Shown here: positions 1,192 through 25,780 of the stretch, one piece after another | Numbering within the stretch: position 1 is the stretch's first letter | Layout of the letters: every line of letters starts with the position of its first letter | IMG/VR virus record: IMGVR_UViG_3300022937_001303 | Location: 1-26,170 of that record | From: a virus | Lineage: Duplodnaviria; Caudoviricetes | Strand: one strand, 5' to 3' | DNA: 26,170 nt | Notes under the pieces: model-generated | Database searches by the model: none | What the model was told of the DNA's origin: nothing | What the model saw: the letters and a program-made list of their open reading frames with translations, nothing else | Program-made: the position numbers and the translations under genes

Positions 1192-2228
1192 TATTGCACT
1201 CCAGAGTTAACACCATTTATCTCTACTGCTTCTGGATATTTCGCTCTTAAATATTTTCTAGCTTGTGTTATTAGTAACTGTTGATATTGGAGTAATGAGT
1301 TTCTAATACTATTAGATGAACCGACAGGATAGGCTTGTGCTGCCATTTGGTCTGTTATGTAATCAGTTGTAGCAGCAGGTATATCTCTACCTGACATCAT
1401 ATGTGCAGCAACACCTGCCATTATGATTGGTTCGTATTCATCTTCTAAACCTATTGTTGTAAGTGTGTCTGTTTCTGCAGTAGGTTCTACAAATTTCTTT
1501 TTAAAAGTTATATAACAAGTATGACCTTGGTCAATGCTATAAAACTGTAAAGCATTAACTTGATTAGGTCCTGTATCGTAGGTTATTGTTCTCTCTGTTC
1601 CATCACTATCTGTATAAGTGAATGGATTAGGTAGTTGTATCATTTGTACAGATACAGGTTGAAATATAACACCTGTCTGGTCTGAACCACTACTAAAATC
1701 TGTGTATTGTGATATCGCTTTTAAAACAGAAACTAAATAGTTGTTTGTTCCTGGTGCATCATAACTACCAAGTAGTACATATCCTGAACCACTTGTAACA
1801 TTGACAGTTTCTACTGCGAATAGAGTAGGAAATAAATTTTTAATCTGGTCAACTACAGCATCAAATACATTCTTACGAGGAAAAGGAGGTGCAATCTTAA
1901 TTATACTTCCTTGTGCGTGTTCTGCTGCAGTAGTTCCTCTAACACCTCTAGTAACTGTAACTGTGTTTGTAACAGCATTAAGGTCACGACATATCATAAG
2001 TTCTTGACCTATCTCTATAATTGTACCTGCATCTAAAGCATCTTCTTCTTCAACAGACAATAGGTCGCCATTAAAAGTAACTTCTGTTGCTGTGTCTGTT
2101 AGTCCTACAGTAACACCATCATCTAACAAATCGCTGTTAGAAAGTGTTGTGTAACTAACAATGTCATCCATAGGTTCAAGATATTCTCTAAAGGTCCTAT
2201 CTACTAGGTCACCAATTGTTGTACTCAT
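1191..2228 (-). CDS. Head-to-tail adaptor / tail tubular protein A-like with inserted beta domain
   Basis: 345 aa, SD AGGAG upstream. Helical N-terminus (TIGDLVDR) and C-terminus (YEPIIMAGVAAHM) typical of adaptors; internal IEIGQELM...TVTRGVRGTTAAEH segment typical of phage tail beta domains; lies between capsid and nozzle genes. Confidence 0.7.
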   Translation of the reverse strand: MSTTIGDLVDRTFREYLEPMDDIVSYTTLSNSDLLDDGVTVGLTDTATEVTFNGDLLSVEEEDALDAGTIIEIGQELMICRDLNAVTNTVTVTRGVRGTTAAEHAQGSIIKIAPPFPRKNVFDAVVDQIKNLFPTLFAVETVNVTSGSGYVLLGSYDAPGTNNYLVSVLKAISQYTDFSSGSDQTGVIFQPVSVQMIQLPNPFTYTDSDGTERTITYDTGPNQVNALQFYSIDQGHTCYITFKKKFVEPTAETDTLTTIGLEDEYEPIIMAGVAAHMMSGRDIPAATTDYITDQMAAQAYPVGSSNSIRNSLLQYQQLLITQARKYLRAKYPEAVEINGVNSGVQ

Positions 2229-2236
2229 TGGCTCTC

Positions 2237-2569
2237 CTAACTATGTCTTAGATGAACTGTTATGCTTCTGTCTGCTGCTTCTGTTCCATCAGATGTGATT
2301 CTTAAATATCCATTACTAGCAAAAGCCCAACCACTAGGGTCAACTCTTACTGCATCTCCTGCTGAAACTGTATATGATACATCAGTTCCATCTGTTTCTT
2401 TGACATCTGCCCAAGTAGAATTATCTAATGAGAAATCAAAGGTAATAGCTGTACCTGTCATAGTTGCAGGGAATTGAATACCACAAAGCAACATTCCATC
2501 TAGTTTAAAACCAACAGAATTGCTTGCATCTTCTGAAACATCTATAAGTGCTTGTTTTGAAATAATCAT
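2237..2569 (-). CDS. Small beta-sandwich virion protein (capsid decoration or tail accessory), 110 aa
   Basis: Start moved from TTG 2590 to ATG 2569 (MIISKQALIDV...) because AAGGA precedes it and 2590 lies in the terminator tail. Alternating beta-strand pattern (AITFDFSLDNSTW, YLRITS); directly after the capsid gene. Confidence 0.65.
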   Translation of the reverse strand: MIISKQALIDVSEDASNSVGFKLDGMLLCGIQFPATMTGTAITFDFSLDNSTWADVKETDGTDVSYTVSAGDAVRVDPSGWAFASNGYLRITSDGTEAADRSITVHLRHS

Positions 2570-2578
2570 ACTTTCCTT

Positions 2579-2587
2579 ACTATAGCA
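2579..2587 (-). promoter_or_regulatory. Putative extended -10 promoter TGcTATAGT
   Basis: TTGTGCTATAGT directly follows the post-capsid hairpin; near-identical TTGTGTTATAGT follows the hairpin at 25753-25780. Confidence 0.45.
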
Positions 2588-2625
2588 CAAGAAAAGGGTG
2601 GAGGTGGAGTTCCACCCTAATCTTG
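2588..2625 (-). terminator. Intrinsic terminator after the major capsid gene
   Basis: AGGGTGGA-(ACTCCACC)-TCCACCCT 8-bp stem followed by TTTCTTG; extendable by CAAGA/TCTTG. Confidence 0.75.
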
Positions 2626-2638
2626 AAATTTATGTAGC

Positions 2639-3772
2639 TTAGGCTACAGCTTGAATTTTACAATGATATGAAGGAGGACCAAATTCAAATCCCATCTCCA
2701 TATAAACTGCTTTTCCAATTCTAGCGTTTGCATCTTGGTCTAAGTCACGAACAAACACAGTACCAAATCCTGGGATATTGGTGAATACTGGTTGAATGTA
2801 AGCTAGGTCAATAATGAAAGCACTACCTGAAGGCATGATATCTGGGTCAATAACCATCATTCCGATTGAACCGAATGGGGTTACAACTGTATCAACATCA
2901 ATACCTGCAACACTTCTATCTCTAGGTAGTATTGCACCTGTAATTCCGACATTACCTTGTAGTAATTCAGTATTAAGGTCTAGTAATTGCTTAGGTGATA
3001 CGCAGAGAACTGGTTGTTTTAATGGTGCGTGAGCATCATATAATCTCTTCATAGCACCTGCGATTGCATCAAATGATAATACTTGTGCATCACCAGTTCC
3101 ATCACCTGCTGTGTCATTGTAGAAACAGTTACCACCGATTGGGTTAGCTGATGCAGCTACAGTATTGTTTGCGTTCTTGTTAAGAGAAACCCAATAGTCA
3201 ATTCCCCACATTTCTCTAGTACCATCACCTGGTGTGGTGTTAGCACCATCAGAGAATGAACCATTGAATGCAAACCATTCAACTTCTCTTGCTACTTTTT
3301 CTAATGCTTTTTCTAATTGCAAAGCAAATTCATCATTAATTGGGTTACCCCCAAATAGTCCTTGTTGAGTACCTGCTGTTGTTGTTCCATCACCATCAGA
3401 TTGATTTGTGATAGCTGCAGATAATGTAAAAGGATTTTGATTTCCTGTTGAAGCTAAAGCTGTGTAGGTCATTTGTACACCCTTATGGAAAATTTGAGTT
3501 ACATGAGTAAATGCTGCTCTATCTCTTCCAAGATATTCTGTAGGTGTTGAGCCTTCTTGTCCTTTGTCAGGTTCTGAATTAATGATTGCATTATCTTCTA
3601 CTTGGACTTGCCAGTATGTAGAGTTTAATACTTTACCACCATTCAAACCACCAACTGATGACAATAAAGGTGTTCTTTGACCACCAACTTTAAACAATTC
3701 ACCAGTAAAGTTATTTATTTGTTGTGCGTAGATAGTATCGCTACCTGCACCACCAAGGCTTATTTCTGCCAT
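2639..3772 (-). CDS. Major capsid protein, SU10/DUF5309-like (HK97 fold)
   Basis: 377 aa; RTPLLSSVG, RAAFTHVTQIFHKGVQMTYT, LQLEKALEKVAREVEWFAFNG, REMWGI and VDTVVTPFGSI match the DUF5309 capsid pattern; SD AGGAG; scaffold upstream, terminator downstream. Confidence 0.92.
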   Translation of the reverse strand: MAEISLGGAGSDTIYAQQINNFTGELFKVGGQRTPLLSSVGGLNGGKVLNSTYWQVQVEDNAIINSEPDKGQEGSTPTEYLGRDRAAFTHVTQIFHKGVQMTYTALASTGNQNPFTLSAAITNQSDGDGTTTAGTQQGLFGGNPINDEFALQLEKALEKVAREVEWFAFNGSFSDGANTTPGDGTREMWGIDYWVSLNKNANNTVAASANPIGGNCFYNDTAGDGTGDAQVLSFDAIAGAMKRLYDAHAPLKQPVLCVSPKQLLDLNTELLQGNVGITGAILPRDRSVAGIDVDTVVTPFGSIGMMVIDPDIMPSGSAFIIDLAYIQPVFTNIPGFGTVFVRDLDQDANARIGKAVYMEMGFEFGPPSYHCKIQAVA

Positions 3773-3778
3773 TTATAT

Positions 3779-3823
3779 CTTCTCCTATAAATTATTTAAA
3801 TTGTCTTATACTTTTAGAAGAAG
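3779..3823 (-). promoter_or_regulatory. Potential SD-sequestering hairpin of the capsid gene
   Basis: CUUCUUCUA (3823-3815) can pair 9 bp (one G-U) with UAGGAGAAG (3787-3779), which contains the capsid SD. Confidence 0.4.
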
Positions 3824-3834
3824 TCTGTTAAAAA

Positions 3835-4269
3835 CTATTTGTTTTTTTTAGCTTCTTCCATAACAGAAAGTTTGGCAGCTATTGAATCTCGTACATTTCC
3901 AGATTTTTCTATGTCACGAACCTGTGAAACTGCATCTGTGCTGTATAAATCTACAACTGAATTTCTTTGTATGTTGTTTAGTCTTTCTTGACTTTGTTCT
4001 ACATTATCTTGTAATCTGTCTTGATTCCCAAACTCAACTGAAAATTCTTGTGATGCGTATTCTTGGATTCCTTCTACAGTTAAATCACCTTCGTACATCA
4101 TCTCAACTGCTTTTCCAACACCTTTAGTAGTGTCAAGACCTGCTTGTTTAAAAACTTCTTGTCTTTCTTTACTTTCGTATTGTGCGATTTTTTCTTCGTA
4201 AAGAGATAATTTTTCTCTCATCTCTTTCCAGTTCTTATCGCCTGTGTCAGAGTTCATTTCTTCTGTCAT
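3835..4269 (-). CDS. Capsid scaffolding protein
   Basis: 144 aa, acidic and helical/coiled-coil (NWKEMREKLSLYEEKIAQYESKER), immediately upstream of the capsid gene, SD TAAGGA at 4280-4285. Confidence 0.75.
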   Translation of the reverse strand: MTEEMNSDTGDKNWKEMREKLSLYEEKIAQYESKERQEVFKQAGLDTTKGVGKAVEMMYEGDLTVEGIQEYASQEFSVEFGNQDRLQDNVEQSQERLNNIQRNSVVDLYSTDAVSQVRDIEKSGNVRDSIAAKLSVMEEAKKNK

Positions 4270-4287
4270 TATTCTATTGTCCTTACT

Positions 4288-4429
4288 TCTACGATATTTT
4301 TACAAGAGGTGTAGAGTGACCTCTGCATTTTGTCTTACACTACTGTTTTTATTTGACAGGTCTTGTCAGTAGGCATCAAGACCGATTACAAAATTGAAGT
4401 CATATTATCCTGCAGACTTACAAACGCAG
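4288..4429 (-). ncRNA. Structured 5' leader with three tandem H-type pseudoknots
   Basis: PK1 4429-4397: CUGCG/UGCAG + AAGUC/GACUU. PK2 4383-4340: GGUCUUG/CAAGACC + CUACUG/CAGUAG. PK3 4324-4288: AGAGGU/ACCUCU + UCUAC/GUAGA. All have L2 of 0-1 nt and A-rich L3. Paired by hand. Confidence 0.7.
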
Positions 4430-4438
4430 CTTGATTTG

Positions 4439-4465
4439 ATTATACCATATATTGTGGTTGTGCAA
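4439..4465 (-). promoter_or_regulatory. Promoter for scaffold-capsid transcript (TTGCAC-N15-TATAAT, extended -10 TGgTATAAT)
   Basis: Perfect TATAAT at 4444-4439 with TG extension in an intergenic gap; -35-like TTGCAC has a short 15-nt spacer. Predicted start is a few nt before PK1. Confidence 0.65.
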
Positions 4466-4486
4466 GTATATATACTAGATATTGTA

Positions 4487-5767
4487 TTAAGTTTCTATTA
4501 AACCTGTAACTGCACCAGTTTGTGTAGTAGCAGCACCCAATACAGCAGCACTTTCAGATGCTATCTGTGCTGATATGTTCTGTAAATTCTGCAGTTCTTG
4601 TGCTTGTCCTAGTTGTGTAGCTTGTACATACTCTGTAGCAGTAGGACCTCTTCTAGCTTGACTTGCTGCAGCACGTTGTAGTCCTTCAAGAGTTAATGCT
4701 GCTTGACCAAAACCTTGTCTAGCACCTTCTTGTGTTAGTCCTTGTTGTGCTAATGATGTACCAACTTGTGCAGTAATGCCACCAAATCCTGCTGCTTCTG
4801 CTTCACCAAGAACTTGTGATGCTCTTATCTGTCCTTCTAATATTTTTGTAGCAACATTAGGAGAAACAAACATAGCAAATATAGATTCATCTGGTAAGTC
4901 AATACCAAAGTTTTCTAAGTATGCTTTTTTAACTTGTGGTATGTTATTGACAACACCTTCGTATCCTGCTTCCATTCTCTGTCTAAACTCTAATGGAGAT
5001 ACATCACCACTAATTGCATTAACAATATCATCTTGAAACTCATTAGGATTTAAGTTATATGTTCTTACAGTAGCTTTCATATTGTCTACAGCAGCAACAT
5101 ATTCTTGTTCTGTCATTCTAAGTGAACCATCTTTTCTCTTTATTCCAGGGTATACTTCTTCCATAAGAGGGTCTGCTCTCATCTCTGCTAAAGCTAAACG
5201 TTCATTTCCTGATTCTGCATATTTATTTAAAAATAATCTAATTAATCTGTCATCTAAATAAGGATATAAGCCTTTAGCCTGTTCAAATGTAGATGGTCCT
5301 GTTTGTTTTGTTTCTTCTACTTGTGCTGATTTAGAATAATTACCAAGCAAATCTTCTAATGTACCTGTATCTAACTTTCCTTTTTCACCTGTAGGTGGAG
5401 ATGTATTTGTAAAACCTTGTCCTCTATATATACTTTCTTGGTCTGCACTACTGACTAATATTGCAACACCTTCATCATTGTATAAATAAAATGGTGTAAA
5501 AGTAACTTCTTCTACAACTGTTTCATCAACTGTATCATCAACTGTATCATCAGGTTCTTCTGTACTCACATCACTTCCATAAACTAAACCAGTAGTTTTT
5601 GTAACGTTATATAAATTTGGGTCTGCTGCTTCTGCTTCACCTATAGACCTAAAAGTACCTATCTTTGCTTCTGCTGCTGCTCTTGTGTTTGGTCCAATAA
5701 TTCCATCAGGTGTTACACCTAATTCTCTTTGTAACGCCTTAATTTCTTCTGTTGTCATGTTTTCCAT
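4487..5767 (-). CDS. Probable internal virion/ejection protein with N-terminal peptidoglycan-binding domain
   Basis: 426 aa; EEIKALQRELGVTPDGIIGPNTRAA fits PG_binding_1 (LQxxL...DGxxGxxT); acidic linker; Ala/Gln/Gly-rich helical C-terminus typical of ejection proteins. Confidence 0.7.
   Translation of the reverse strand: MENMTTEEIKALQRELGVTPDGIIGPNTRAAAEAKIGTFRSIGEAEAADPNLYNVTKTTGLVYGSDVSTEEPDDTVDDTVDETVVEEVTFTPFYLYNDEGVAILVSSADQESIYRGQGFTNTSPPTGEKGKLDTGTLEDLLGNYSKSAQVEETKQTGPSTFEQAKGLYPYLDDRLIRLFLNKYAESGNERLALAEMRADPLMEEVYPGIKRKDGSLRMTEQEYVAAVDNMKATVRTYNLNPNEFQDDIVNAISGDVSPLEFRQRMEAGYEGVVNNIPQVKKAYLENFGIDLPDESIFAMFVSPNVATKILEGQIRASQVLGEAEAAGFGGITAQVGTSLAQQGLTQEGARQGFGQAALTLEGLQRAAASQARRGPTATEYVQATQLGQAQELQNLQNISAQIASESAAVLGAATTQTGAVTGLIET
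5515..5550. repeat. 3 x 12-bp coding tandem repeat (DDTV DDTV DETV linker)
   Basis: caactgtttcat caactgtatcat caactgtatcat. Confidence 0.85.
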
Positions 5768-5769
5768 AA

Positions 5770-6987
5770 TTAACCTACTAAACTTTGTCCTGTAAATACA
5801 CCTGATACATCTTGCTTAAACACACTTGCCATAGCACCTAACGCTTGGTCTTGATATGTAGGGTCATTTTCATATTGTTTTCTTACTTCTCCTGCAAACA
5901 ATGTCATATCTCCACCGACTTTTTGTGATATAATGTCCACATTCTTTTTGTCTTGATTAGACAATGCACTCTTACCAGTTATAGATTGAAATGTTCTATA
6001 TAGTGGTGCTGACCATAGTTCATGTTGACTACCTTCATAATTAGGAAATAATTTATCGTGTGCTTTCTGCAACTGTTCTATAATTACTTCTCTATTTGTA
6101 GTGACACCTTCACCTTGTGCAGCATCAGCACGTAACATAGCAGCGTATTGTTCTATAACGCCATTATCTTCAAATGCAACTGCTGCATCTACACCAAGAT
6201 ATTTTGTAACTAAACTTTTAGCATCAGACATACCACTTTTTGTAGGATTAATCTTGTCAATATATCCTATGTAGTCTTGGTTCATAGCACTTACACCACC
6301 TGCCATAGATAATTTATATGGGTCTATTAAGAAAGATATTGTTTGTGCAGCTTCTGCTGTAGTTAAATTACCTTGTGCAATATCACTTGCTAGTTCTCTA
6401 ACTAAATCATCAACACCTTCTCCAGATATACCTAACTGTGCAATCTGTAGCTTTAGTGCTGTGTAGTTATCTTTAACTAGCTCTGCTGCTTTAGTTGGAT
6501 TTGTATATACAAGCTGAATCCAATCTCTTTGTTCTGGTGTGTGGTCTTTAAACCAAGTTAAATTTTCTAAGTATGGAGTTATGTCCTGTCCAGTAATTGC
6601 ACCATATGCAAATAACTGTTGTACTTCATCATCTAAATACCAAGTCTTACCAAATATTGTTGCTTTCTTTTGTAAATCATTTTCTACGTTTTCTAATAAC
6701 CAATCTATATCTGTCTTAGGATTTTCAGGGTCAAGAAGTTTTAGGTCTGATAAGTTGAACATAGGAAAAAATGCATATCCATACTTATCTGTAAATGTTT
6801 GTTCTGTATACGCAACTGCAGTATCTAATGCACCTTCTGCAAAACTTTCTGGTAAATCTACATCTACTACTAATGGCATAACAGCACCACTTGTAGTTGT
6901 GTAATTATACACAGCATAGTACCTTCCATTAACGAAAATTAATTCATCTGGAACTTGTAGTCTACTACCTTCTTTAAATATTGCCAT
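5770..6987 (-). CDS. Hypothetical virion-associated protein, 405 aa
   Basis: Long ORF coupled by TAATG to the upstream gene; mostly helical; no catalytic motif recognised. Confidence 0.6.
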   Translation of the reverse strand: MAIFKEGSRLQVPDELIFVNGRYYAVYNYTTTSGAVMPLVVDVDLPESFAEGALDTAVAYTEQTFTDKYGYAFFPMFNLSDLKLLDPENPKTDIDWLLENVENDLQKKATIFGKTWYLDDEVQQLFAYGAITGQDITPYLENLTWFKDHTPEQRDWIQLVYTNPTKAAELVKDNYTALKLQIAQLGISGEGVDDLVRELASDIAQGNLTTAEAAQTISFLIDPYKLSMAGGVSAMNQDYIGYIDKINPTKSGMSDAKSLVTKYLGVDAAVAFEDNGVIEQYAAMLRADAAQGEGVTTNREVIIEQLQKAHDKLFPNYEGSQHELWSAPLYRTFQSITGKSALSNQDKKNVDIISQKVGGDMTLFAGEVRKQYENDPTYQDQALGAMASVFKQDVSGVFTGQSLVG

Positions 6988-9900
6988 TAGTCATCTCTAT
7001 TATAAACATTGTTTGCTAACTTTACAGTCCTATCTATTATCACATTAGCACTAGGGTTATTGTTTAAATACCCTGTAAATACTTTATCATAATCAATAGA
7101 GTTCTGCATAAGGTCTAGTTTTTGGCTATCTGGTATATTACTGTAATAAATATCATTTCTCATATCTATATCACCTACATCTTCTATGTAACTTTCTTCT
7201 AAAGCATCACCATTAGATGCTCTAGTCATAACATCTATAGCTGTACTCCATATTGCATTACCTAATAATTCTGCAGGTGACCTTGAACCTGCTTCTTCTA
7301 ACATTTCTAATAACTCACCACCATAATCTTGCCAAAAAGTTTCTTCAACCAGTTGCTTTTCCCATTCTTCACCATTAGCAAGTATCTCATTTCTACGTGC
7401 ATATACTTGATATAGTTCAGGTAACGATAGTGCAGCAGTTCCTAACAAGTTAAATATTTCATAAAAAGACCATATTGCTGCTGCAGTTGCAACACCTGTA
7501 CCAAGAGTAATAGCACCTGCTGCTGCTGCTACAGTTGCAGCTTTTGAAAACGCTTTGTTAATTAATGTTTCACCTATGTCTAATGTTTTCCAACCTACTC
7601 CTAAAGCCTTACCTACTTTGCTTTGTGCAAATGATTTCATCATCTTACGTAAAGTTGCTACATCAGGTGTTAATCCAGTAGGAACTCTTTCTTGATTATA
7701 TGGAATACCATAATAACCAATATTGTTACTACCACCTACTGCTCTTCCATAAGTATAAGAAGCTCTTACACTATCAATAGTTTCATTACCATACACTACT
7801 GGTTGAACAGGATTTACTACTGCATCATATCTTGGTGCGTTATTAGGATATAATTCCTCAATAGATATGTCGTAATCTAATATATTGTTTAAATTAGTTT
7901 CAATTATTCCATTTTGAAAATGCTCATCTGGTGCAATAATAGTTATATCTCCAACTATGAAATTTGATGGTATATCTCTTAATTGTTGCCGACTAAGATT
8001 AACTGGTGTTGTACTGCTATCTGGTGCTGTAACATTAAATATAGGTTCTTGACCAGTTCTTTTTATAATTTCTATCTCTGGTCGTGTTGTTCCATCAATA
8101 GGACTTGGACCACGCAAATTTATCTTTACAGCACCTACTGTTCTATTGTCAACCATATCATATAAATTATCTAATGCAGTATTAAGTTTTTGTACATCAA
8201 TTCCCTCATTACTTGCAAACGCTTCTATAGGAGGAGTAATGTTTGCTTGTGAAAATACTGGTTGTGGAGATATATCTCTAGGAGTTCTAGTTTCTGAACT
8301 TGTATTTCTAACCATTTCTAATTCTTCATCTATAACAAATTGTCTGTTTTGTATTTCTTCATTAGAAGTTTTTCTATTTATATATAAAAAATTATCTGAT
8401 GCTCTCAATCTTAAAGAACCATCATTTGATTCATAAGCAACATTAAAAGCAGCACCCACTCTACCAGTAGGATGTATTCTTGAAGATATTGGATTATCTC
8501 TTTCTTGTCCTGAAAAACCATCTCTTACTTCTATTCCTAATTCTTTCATCATATGAATAAAAGAACGATTTATTATATTTGTTGTAATTCCACTTCCTGT
8601 TTTTGTAGATTGCACATTAGAAGTAATAGATGCAACCACATTATTATTTACATCTAAATGATTTGTTACTTCTATAGTTGCATAATGTTTTGTTAATGTT
8701 AAATCTCCATTTGTATTTTCTACATCATATATAAAACCAACTTCAAAATAATCTTTTGGTCCAAATCTGTCTGATAATGTTTGTCTTGTTCCAACGTGTT
8801 CAATTTCTACAACTAAAAGATTTCTATCAGCACCACCAAATAAATCTGACTCATTAAATAAAGTTTCTGCACTTCTTGTAAAGTAATGTTTAGCTTTATC
8901 AGATAATATAACTTTATCTTGAAATGAACCACCATTTATTTTTCTAAATGCTTGATTTAGTTCAGTACCAAAAATATCTTCATTATTAAAATATATACTA
9001 CTTAATACTGCTAATTGACCATCTCCTAATAACTGATTTCTATACCAACCCTGATTTTCAAATAATGGGTCTAAATCCTCAAACATATCATATATAGAAA
9101 ATGCACCTGCTTCGGCATCTAATATATTAATATTGCCTTCACTTATTCTTGCTAATACAGCTCTTTCACTAAGATTATCTTGGTTTAACAACTGTGTTAC
9201 AGGTCTACTATCTGTAATTGTTGAACCTCTAGTTGATGGAGATGTTGTTGTATCTGGTGTTGTTGTTTCTGGTGTTGTTGTTTCTGCTGCTTGTCCAAAT
9301 CTTGAATCTACCCATTGTAATATACCTTGTGTTTGTATATTTGCTTCTGAACCTGCTAAACCATCTATCTGTGACAATAATGATTCTCTTGTAAACATAT
9401 TTAGATTACTTTCTCTCATTGTGTCCGAAGGATATGTTTCAATTAAATCTTCTAAGAAGTAATACATAGCTTCTCCATTATTATCCATAAAGTTATTTAG
9501 TGAACCAGTTTTAATAATTCCAGTATCATCAAGTTGAGAATGTACTACTAAATCATTTGTATAGACTAAACCTAAATTTTCAAATATATTTTGTAGCTCT
9601 GTTACATCTTCCATAGGATTTAAACCTGTAGAAGTTACCATAGCTTCAGTACGCATAAGTAGTTGTGCAAACATTTGTGGGTCTACCTCATATGAAAGTG
9701 CATCAAACAAACCATAAATATCATCTTTTTTTCCGAAGTATTTTATTTTCTCTAGTTTTTCTGGGTTATCGTAGTTATCAGATAAAAACTTAATCATTGG
9801 ATTGCCACCAATATTTTTTCTTCCAGTAGCAATATAAAGTAATTCTTGATTAAGTTTACTTCTTTTTACATCAGTCAAATTTTCTAAATCTACTGATGCT

Positions 9901-25753: not shown

Positions 25754-25780
25754 CAAAACCCTGCCGAAGCAGGGTCTTGT
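25753..25780 (-). terminator. Intrinsic terminator with C(UUCG)G tetraloop
   Basis: ACAAGACCCTGC-TTCG-GCAGGGTTTTGT, 12 bp with one G-U pair that forms only on the minus strand. Confidence 0.85.

What the first reader, a model, noticed from the sequence alone, without database searches (positions are those of the whole stretch)
4288..4429. Three tandem H-type pseudoknots tile the 5' leader of the scaffold-capsid operon
Seen: between the TGgTATAAT promoter and the scaffold SD, the ~165-nt leader holds three units with different sequences but the same topology. PK1 CUGCG-uuugu-AAGUC-UGCAG-gauaauau-GACUU; PK2 GGUCUUG-augc-CUACUG-a-CAAGACC-ugucaaauaaaaa-CAGUAG; PK3 AGAGGU-cac-UCUAC-ACCUCU-uguaaaaauauc-GUAGA. 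Each has 5-7 bp stems, L1 3-5 nt, L2 0-1 nt and an A-rich L3, and PK3 ends 2 nt before UAAGGA. Known: T4 gene 32 autoregulates through a leader pseudoknot, P22 scaffolding protein represses its own synthesis post-transcriptionally, and type III antitoxins (ToxI) are tandem pseudoknots that phage phiTE mimics. Inference: a structural (not sequence) repeat array acting as a cooperative scaffold-sensing translational operator, an RNase barrier/translation enhancer for the most abundant late mRNA, or a processed anti-defence decoy RNA. I do not recognise it as a described family.
Basis: partly seen in the sequence, partly recalled or inferred. Interest (0 to 1): 0.9.

Follow-up and report, generated by a model that had tools for sequence, protein, structure and literature searches.

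The report
Triple-pseudoknot leader of phage head mRNA
The stretch ahead of a marine phage's capsid-building genes encodes three small RNA knots in a row, which relatives have kept through matched mutations and no RNA family library lists, and which likely shield that message from decay, though a protein-controlled switch is not excluded.

Summary
The three H-type pseudoknots are exactly as described (minus strand 4429-4397, 4383-4340, 4324-4288). None of 3000 shuffles gives three. In 51 related leaders 96.6% of cells pair and 11 of 35 pairs change on both sides. A second leader class with different sequence keeps a three-knot layout (17 of 38 pairs). The PK2 core occurs only in this leader, and Rfam has no match. 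The array runs from the predicted transcription start to the Shine-Dalgarno of a probable scaffold gene and leaves that site unpaired. Best reading (0.5): a 5' shield against RNase E scanning, which pseudoknots hinder and hairpins do not (PMC9943677); the only candidate host order has RNase E (55/65) and no RNase J over the cut-off (0/65). Rival (0.33): a protein-bound operator, since PK2 is nearly sequence-frozen. A conserved hairpin that likely couples capsid to scaffold translation argues against P22-style scaffold-only control. A ToxI-like decoy is not supported. Host and function are untested. This scan already noted similar arrays on other phage DNA.

The parts
4439..4465 (-). Predicted promoter: TTGCAC hexamer 4465-4460, 15-nt spacer, TG-extended TATAAT 4444-4439; inferred +1 near 4432
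   Evidence: TG extension in 89 of 129 distinct related promoters, a TTG-type hexamer at 15 nt in 76 of 129; start site not mapped
4397..4429 (-). PK1, 5'-terminal H-type pseudoknot (5+5 bp; stem 2 probably extends by 3 bp past a bulge); eight interchangeable sequence types in relatives
   Evidence: 4 of 5 S1 pairs change on both sides; a PK1 type in 169 of 170 leaders; S1 starts 7-10 nt after a -10-like box in 154 of 169
4340..4383 (-). PK2, H-type pseudoknot (7+6 bp), core nearly sequence-invariant in class I
   Evidence: S1 7 of 7 pairs never vary in 51 leaders; first S1 pair G-C in 67 and U-A in 9 of 76; the unit at this position in class II has 8 of 8 S1 pairs covarying
4288..4324 (-). 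PK3, H-type pseudoknot (6+5 bp) ending 2 nt before the Shine-Dalgarno; same module as PK2
   Evidence: 2 pairs in each stem change on both sides; parsed in 62 of 64 class I leaders, the other two need a 2-nt loop 2
4270..4285 (-). Weak Shine-Dalgarno (TAAGGA) and A-rich spacer, unpaired in the model
   Evidence: GGACAA invariant in 51 of 51 class I leaders
3835..4269 (-). 144-aa acidic helical protein, probable capsid scaffold
   Evidence: position before the capsid gene; all-helical low-confidence model with two C-terminal helices; nearest named Atlas clusters are scaffolds at 0.90 and 0.89; Pfam Phage_scaffold only E 0.16 in 2 of 24; no significant fold match
3779..3823 (-). Anti-Shine-Dalgarno stem (3823-3815 with 3787-3779) covering the capsid ribosome site; likely translational coupling
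   Evidence: anti-SD in 35 of 39 class I spacers, 8-13 nt after the stop in 34; 0 of 49 in classes II-V; -9.5 kcal/mol, 12 of 200 shuffles as good
2639..3772 (-). Major capsid protein gene
   Evidence: phrog_1328, E 2.8e-25; 25-30% identity to annotated capsid proteins, mostly of actinobacterial phages
2595..2618 (-). Terminator-like hairpin after the capsid gene, probable 3' end of the transcript
   Evidence: consensus match only

Best explanation
The three pseudoknots form the 5' untranslated leader of the predicted scaffold-capsid mRNA and most likely act as a constitutive shield that slows its decay while leaving the ribosome site open. Shown: the fold (by covariation), its fixed place between promoter motif and start codon, and the unpaired Shine-Dalgarno in the model. 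Inferred: transcription starts 1-4 nt before PK1, so PK1 would hide the 5' end. Once a 5' monophosphate forms (by pyrophosphate removal, or by a cut in the AU-rich promoter region of a read-through transcript), RNase E would scan inward and meet three coaxial obstacles of 10-13 bp in series. Ribosomes loading behind PK3 would make scaffold and, on terminating, would open the hairpin over the capsid ribosome site, so one stabilised message would supply both head proteins.
For: Covariation in both stems of PK1 and PK3 and, more thinly, PK2; class II keeps three knots with other sequence. PK1 occurs as eight sequence types and starts 7-10 nt after a -10-like box in 154 of 169 leaders, so place and shape matter more than letters. 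H-type pseudoknots hinder RNase E scanning in proportion to coaxial base pairs, while stem-loops are bypassed (PMC9943677: abstract, introduction, methods, start of results and passages read); this explains knots rather than hairpins. In the order of the genome bin that holds two relatives, RNase E/G is found in 55 of 65 genomes and RNase J over the cut-off in 0 of 65. No unit pairs with the Shine-Dalgarno in classes I-III. Contigs of RNA libraries join the leader to the scaffold gene (X1 3974-4364, X3 3974-5241, X5 up to 4414), though DNA may be in those libraries.
Against: A purely steric shield should tolerate sequence change, yet the PK2 core is nearly frozen across scaffolds only 38-42% identical, and class II has a frozen core in PK3. 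The host is not established: the link is bin membership of two free-standing phage contigs, and no WhiB was found in 5 relatives, 4 of them at least 90% complete. The scanning work was done in E. coli, and the passages read do not test pseudoknots in tandem. An 11-bp knot was only a modest obstacle there. The start site is not mapped, and contigs give no strand, end or level. Class IV leaders do pair part of their Shine-Dalgarno (by eye).
Confidence: 0.5

Rival explanations
1. Translational operator: a late protein (scaffold, capsid protein or another) binds the repeated PK2/PK3 module and blocks or traps the 30S subunit at the adjacent site, with PK1 only protecting the 5' end.
For: PK3 ends at the edge of the ribosome footprint (18 nt before ATG). 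One unit per class is sequence-frozen. The distal ends of the PK2 and PK3 stems carry a possible C-G pair beyond a one-base bulge (S1: 76 of 76 for both; PK2 S2: 65 of 76 plus one U-A; class II PK2 88 of 90; class II/III PK3 95 of 95), which could be a repeated binding mark. Structured RNAs recur before GP20 scaffold genes (PMC10690425, passages). [quoted passage not shown] T4 gp32 nucleates on a leader pseudoknot (PMC3014915, passages).
Against: Leader class needs the minimum 4 changes on both the scaffold tree and the upstream-gene tree, so linkage explains it. Capsid proteins up to 97% identical sit behind different leader classes, which argues against capsid protein as a sequence-specific ligand. 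In class I the coupling hairpin would make scaffold repression cut capsid synthesis too, unlike the P22 logic (inference). There is no long unstructured tract for gp32-like spreading. The capping pairs are almost invariant, so they are not proven pairs, and 10 of 76 lack the PK2 S2 cap.
Confidence: 0.33
2. Translation enhancer only: the knots serve as a ribosome standby or S1-binding platform and lock up G/C-rich sequence so that the weak ribosome site stays single-stranded.
For: The class I Shine-Dalgarno is weak and 10 nt from the start; linkers and loops are A/U-rich; the site is unpaired in the model. S1 binding to pseudoknots and the tisB standby pseudoknot are recalled, from no call.
Against: It does not explain why PK1 sits at the very 5' end, 130 nt or more from the start codon, in 154 of 169 leaders. 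A short unstructured leader would keep the site open more cheaply.
Confidence: 0.1
3. Processed decoy RNA that neutralises a type III toxin-antitoxin defence, like phiTE pseudo-ToxI.
For: Units are 33-44 nt pseudoknots, near the 36-nt ToxI unit (PMC3475682, passages).
Against: The units are not sequence repeats and their number does not vary in class I. No Rfam match. No terminator-like site on the minus strand separates the array from the gene. The PK2 core is found before the scaffold gene in 95 of 102 matches, the other 7 being cut by contig ends in the same leader context.
Confidence: 0.03

Closest known systems
GP20-a and GP20-b motifs and six further candidate RNAs before GP20 genes (PMC10690425, passages read)
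   Same: Conserved structured RNA ending within 25 nt of a phage head-assembly gene. That GP20 is the old name of Pfam PF06810 Phage_scaffold is recalled; one search gives only the present name.
   Different: No covariance-model match; this protein is not PF06810 by cut-off; three pseudoknots fill the leader from the predicted start. The paper's alignments and diagrams could not be read, so overlap with its 10,006 candidates is not excluded.
Pseudoknot obstacles to RNase E scanning (PMC9943677)
   Same: H-type pseudoknots of 10-13 coaxial pairs in a 5' UTR, upstream of the region to protect.
   Different: The pseudoknots tested there were single inserts in an E. coli reporter; here three natural units lie in series in a phage of uncertain host, with no measured protection.
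T4/T2/RB69 gene 32 translational operator (PMC3014915, passages read)
   Same: H-type pseudoknot in a phage mRNA leader upstream of the ribosome site.
   Different: One knot 67 nt upstream, followed by an unstructured A+U tract and a gene for a single-strand-binding protein; here three knots reach to 2 nt before the Shine-Dalgarno of a scaffold-like gene.
Upstream pseudoknot domain of tobamovirus 3' UTRs (recalled; also named in earlier scan notes)
   Same: Three consecutive H-type pseudoknots of different sequence.
   Different: 3' UTR of a plant RNA virus; here the 5' leader of a DNA phage mRNA.
ToxI and phiTE pseudo-ToxI (PMC3475682, passages read)
   Same: Tandem pseudoknot units of about 36 nt.
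   Different: ToxI is a direct sequence repeat followed by a terminator and the toxin gene; neither holds here.

Membership tests
GP20-a / GP20-b RNA motifs | Match to the Rfam models | tested here: not met
   No hit at the leader in the window (E up to 5) or in 9 related loci of five classes (E up to 1)
GP20-a / GP20-b RNA motifs | Downstream gene of Pfam PF06810 | tested here: inconclusive
   E 0.16 in 2 of 24 members; Atlas neighbour at 0.89
GP20-a / GP20-b RNA motifs | Structure ends within 25 nt of the start codon | tested here: met
   PK3 ends at 4288, ATG at 4269
RNase E scanning obstacle (works-like) | Coaxial pseudoknot pairing 5' of the protected region | tested here: met
   10, 13 and 11 bp, covariation
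RNase E scanning obstacle (works-like) | Host degrades mRNA with RNase E | tested here: inconclusive
   55 of 65 genomes of the candidate order, but the host link rests on one bin
RNase E scanning obstacle (works-like) | Measured protection of downstream sites | not testable with these tools
   Needs a reporter assay
5'-exonuclease (RNase J) roadblock | Host has RNase J | tested here: inconclusive
   0 of 65 over the cut-off, one long sub-cut-off match with a stop; genomes incomplete, host unsure
T4 gene 32 operator | Pseudoknot followed by a long unstructured A+U tract over the ribosome site | tested here: not met
   PK3 ends 2 nt before TAAGGA
T4 gene 32 operator | Repression by the encoded protein | not testable with these tools
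   Tree test was uninformative
Type III antitoxin (ToxI / pseudo-ToxI) | Direct sequence repeats of the unit | tested here: not met
   Units differ in sequence
Type III antitoxin (ToxI / pseudo-ToxI) | Terminator then toxin gene, or match to an antitoxin model | tested here: not met
   No minus-strand terminator-like site, no ToxN among the listed matches of the downstream protein, no Rfam match
H-type pseudoknot riboswitches (SAM-II/V, preQ1) | Aptamer model match and a platform that sequesters the ribosome site | tested here: not met
   No Rfam hit; Shine-Dalgarno outside all stems in class I
Tobamovirus upstream pseudoknot domain | Located in the 3' UTR of an RNA virus | tested here: not met
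   5' leader in a phage contig; the family description is recalled

The most novel reading that the evidence does not exclude
Tailed phages have evolved a general, undescribed class of mRNA armour: modular arrays of small pseudoknots, built from a repeated bulge-capped unit, that block RNase E scanning on head-gene messages, with one sequence-frozen unit doubling as a sensor for a head protein that sets stability and translation of the coupled scaffold-capsid pair.
Probability: 0.25. Interest if true: 0.82.

Novelty: new variant of a known kind. Interest (0 to 1): 0.62.

Why it matters
If the shield reading holds, this is a natural case of pseudoknots stacked in series to hinder RNase E scanning, a mechanism characterised largely with reporters. 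It would also give a compact 160-nt stabilising leader for expression work. If the operator reading holds, it supplies a defined RNA target for the old question of how scaffolding proteins control their own synthesis, and a testable function for orphan motifs such as GP20-a/b. The five natural classes already provide compensatory variants and matched scaffold-leader pairs for swap tests.

Tried and rejected
Co-evolution test: leader class needed 4 changes on both the scaffold and the upstream-gene trees and 13 on the capsid tree (119 of 170 leaders had enough flank; FastTree), so it cannot separate function from linkage. RNA depth: summed contig depth is far higher over about 2100-4500 than over 5400-9000 in 4 of 4 runs, and in run X5 cover stops at 4414 inside PK1 with none until 4539. 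Contig depth cannot rank genes, the runs were found with this stretch, and X1 and X2 run across the promoter, so neither was used as evidence of a start site. A fourth pseudoknot-like hit inside the capsid gene (3632-3597) is kept in only 18 of 78 relatives; rejected. ToxN search in 65 genomes found nothing, but neither did the controls; uninformative. WhiB, tRNA and Pfam scans of 53 proteins gave no host marker. The cross-class PK2 alignment failed; that homology rests on parsing by eye. Fold search of the scaffold model gave no hit at E 0.001. A blastn of the leader against 50,697 phage records gave no real match. Literature: searches listed no paper on tandem pseudoknot leaders of phage head genes. 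For PMC10690425, motif and contig-name searches of the readable tables found nothing, but the rows seen there hold no sequences and the zip and PDF files were unreadable. Supplements of PMC5737381 were unreadable. No profile search of protein representatives and no scaffold-capsid complex model was obtained, so scaffold identity stays inferred.

Full report
Observation. The window is a linear virus record of 26,170 bases, 33% G+C, whose structural genes lie on the minus strand. The three pseudoknots are present letter for letter at 4429-4397, 4383-4340 and 4324-4288. They lie between a TG-extended TATAAT (4444-4439) and TAAGGA (4285-4280), 10 nt before the ATG of a 144-aa ORF. Loose single knots are common (60 on both strands), but three in the leader arise in 0 of 3000 shuffles and nowhere else in the window. 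Nested folding gives z +0.67 and rough knot energies are only comparable to the nested fold, so the case rests on comparison.

Relatives. Searches with the ORF, the capsid protein and alignments gave 326 profile hits and 170 distinct 230-nt upstream sequences; hits too near a contig end were dropped, and identical leaders with different upstream flank count separately. They fall into class I, like the window (64), class II (90), III (5), IV (10) and V (1). In 51 class I leaders the named structure has 96.6% of cells paired and 11 of 35 pairs changed on both sides (2 of 500 shuffles reach that; slid controls 35-47% paired). In 27 class II leaders, with different sequence, 98.2% are paired and 17 of 38 pairs change on both sides (0 of 500). 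Related sequences inflate such shuffle tests, and one class II stem 2 (PK2) showed no two-sided change in that set; three further leaders carry one. PK1 comes in eight sequence types, including one unrelated sequence with the same topology (L041). PK2 never varies in S1 among the 51, but a subclass found by pattern search has its first pair changed from G-C to U-A (9 of 76). Classes III-V were parsed by eye and carry three or more units.

Anatomy. PK2 and PK3 share a module. Loop 3 mostly begins with UG, and each stem is followed on its 3' strand by one base and a G that could pair with a C flanking the 5' strand (S1 76 of 76 in both; PK2 S2 65 of 76 plus one U-A; PK3 S2 62 of 62 parsed; class II and III 88 of 90 and 95 of 95). 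These caps are nearly invariant and so unproven. PK1 instead has a bulge on the 5' strand of stem 2 and starts 7-10 nt after a -10-like box in 154 of 169 leaders, which would leave 1-4 unpaired bases at the 5' end. The PK2 core matches 102 viral stretches; 95 have the scaffold-like gene 90-130 nt downstream and 7 are cut by contig ends in the same context. In two relatives scanned over most of their length the only chain of three strict knots was this leader; a class II genome gave none because its stems are bulged.

Genes. The downstream 377-aa gene is a major capsid protein. The 144-aa protein is a probable scaffold by position, helical model (mean pLDDT 61) and Atlas neighbours, but no family passes a cut-off with a name. 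Between the two genes, 35 of 39 class I spacers have an anti-Shine-Dalgarno stem over the capsid ribosome site, starting 8-13 nt after the stop in 34; none of 49 spacers of classes II-V has it. A terminating ribosome would open it (inference). A terminator-like hairpin follows the capsid gene. Contigs from salt-marsh RNA libraries join the leader to the scaffold gene, which is compatible with one message but shows no strand, end or level.

Host. Two relatives lie in an Actinomycetota genome bin, as free-standing contigs with duplicated gene blocks and no evident host flank, and the nearest annotated capsids are mostly from actinobacterial phages at 25-30% identity. The bin's order, 65 genomes of 0.6-1.1 Mb, has RNase E/G in 55 and RNase J over the cut-off in none. 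WhiB was not found in 5 relatives. The host is therefore a lead only.

Mechanism. RNase E scans from a 5' monophosphate, bypasses stem-loops and is hindered by H-type pseudoknots in proportion to their coaxial pairs (PMC9943677; first fifth of the text and passages read). Three knots of 10-13 pairs, the first at the predicted 5' end and of exchangeable sequence, fit a stabilising shield for the head message; I put this at 0.5. Against it stand the frozen PK2 core across scaffolds of 38-42% identity, the modest effect of an 11-bp knot in that paper and the uncertain host. The operator reading (0.33) draws on the frozen unit, the repeated caps, the closeness of PK3 to the ribosome site, and precedent in P22 (passage), T4 gene 32 (passages) and GP20 motifs (passages). 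It gains nothing from the tree test, and likely coupling makes scaffold-only feedback awkward. The two readings can both hold. An enhancer-only role gets 0.1 and a ToxI-like decoy 0.03.

Novelty. Rfam has no match in the window or nine related loci, no annotated phage record holds the leader, and eight literature searches listed no description. The alignments of the 10,006 viral candidates in PMC10690425 and the supplements of PMC5737381 could not be read and may include part of it. Structured RNAs before scaffold genes and leader pseudoknots are known kinds, so this is a new variant. Those notes are unchecked leads, but two that place arrays directly before capsid genes moved me from the operator towards the stability reading. 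Interest 0.62: a well-supported, easily tested RNA architecture with no function yet shown.

Noticed in passing
window 3779-3823 (minus): Conserved anti-Shine-Dalgarno stem over the capsid ribosome site just after the scaffold stop, in 35 of 39 class I spacers, with an apparently compensated version in L133; likely translational coupling.
   Followed up: partly
L342, L348, L353, L358, L372, L377, L410, spacer after the scaffold stop: A subclass has a strong hairpin in which the anti-SD pairs with a duplicated local SD-like sequence right after the stop, leaving the capsid SD free; a terminating ribosome might reverse this.
   Followed up: no
window 4439-4465 (minus) and relatives: A TTG-type hexamer lies only 15 nt before the -10 box in 76 of 129 distinct promoters, shorter than the usual 16-18; 89 of 129 have a TG-extended -10.
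   Followed up: partly
window 4277-4282 (minus): GGACAA is invariant in 51 class I leaders although it is a poor Shine-Dalgarno; the 5' strand of PK2 stem 1 is partly complementary to this region, more so in the subclass above. Too short to compete with PK2.
   Followed up: no
window about 3597-3625 (minus), capsid codons near 51-59: The rare valine codon GTC is kept in 91 of 98 parsed capsid genes (11% of valine codons overall), fitting a small hairpin, but the stretch is not among the 15 lowest windows of synonymous variation.
   Followed up: partly
L329 / L446 19082-19280 (minus); L079 and L120: The class V leader holds at least four units, one with a hairpin inserted in loop 1; class IV ends in a hairpin that covers part of the Shine-Dalgarno.
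   Followed up: no
window 25755-25779 (minus): Strong terminator-like hairpin with a UUCG loop upstream of small basic ORFs and the terminase; the weak Rfam hits here are terminator-only matches.
   Followed up: no
G001:C30 and G001:C36: Two phage contigs of 58 and 54 kb inside a bacterial genome bin show a repeated block of ORFs, so they are probably over-assembled circular phage genomes rather than prophages.
   Followed up: partly
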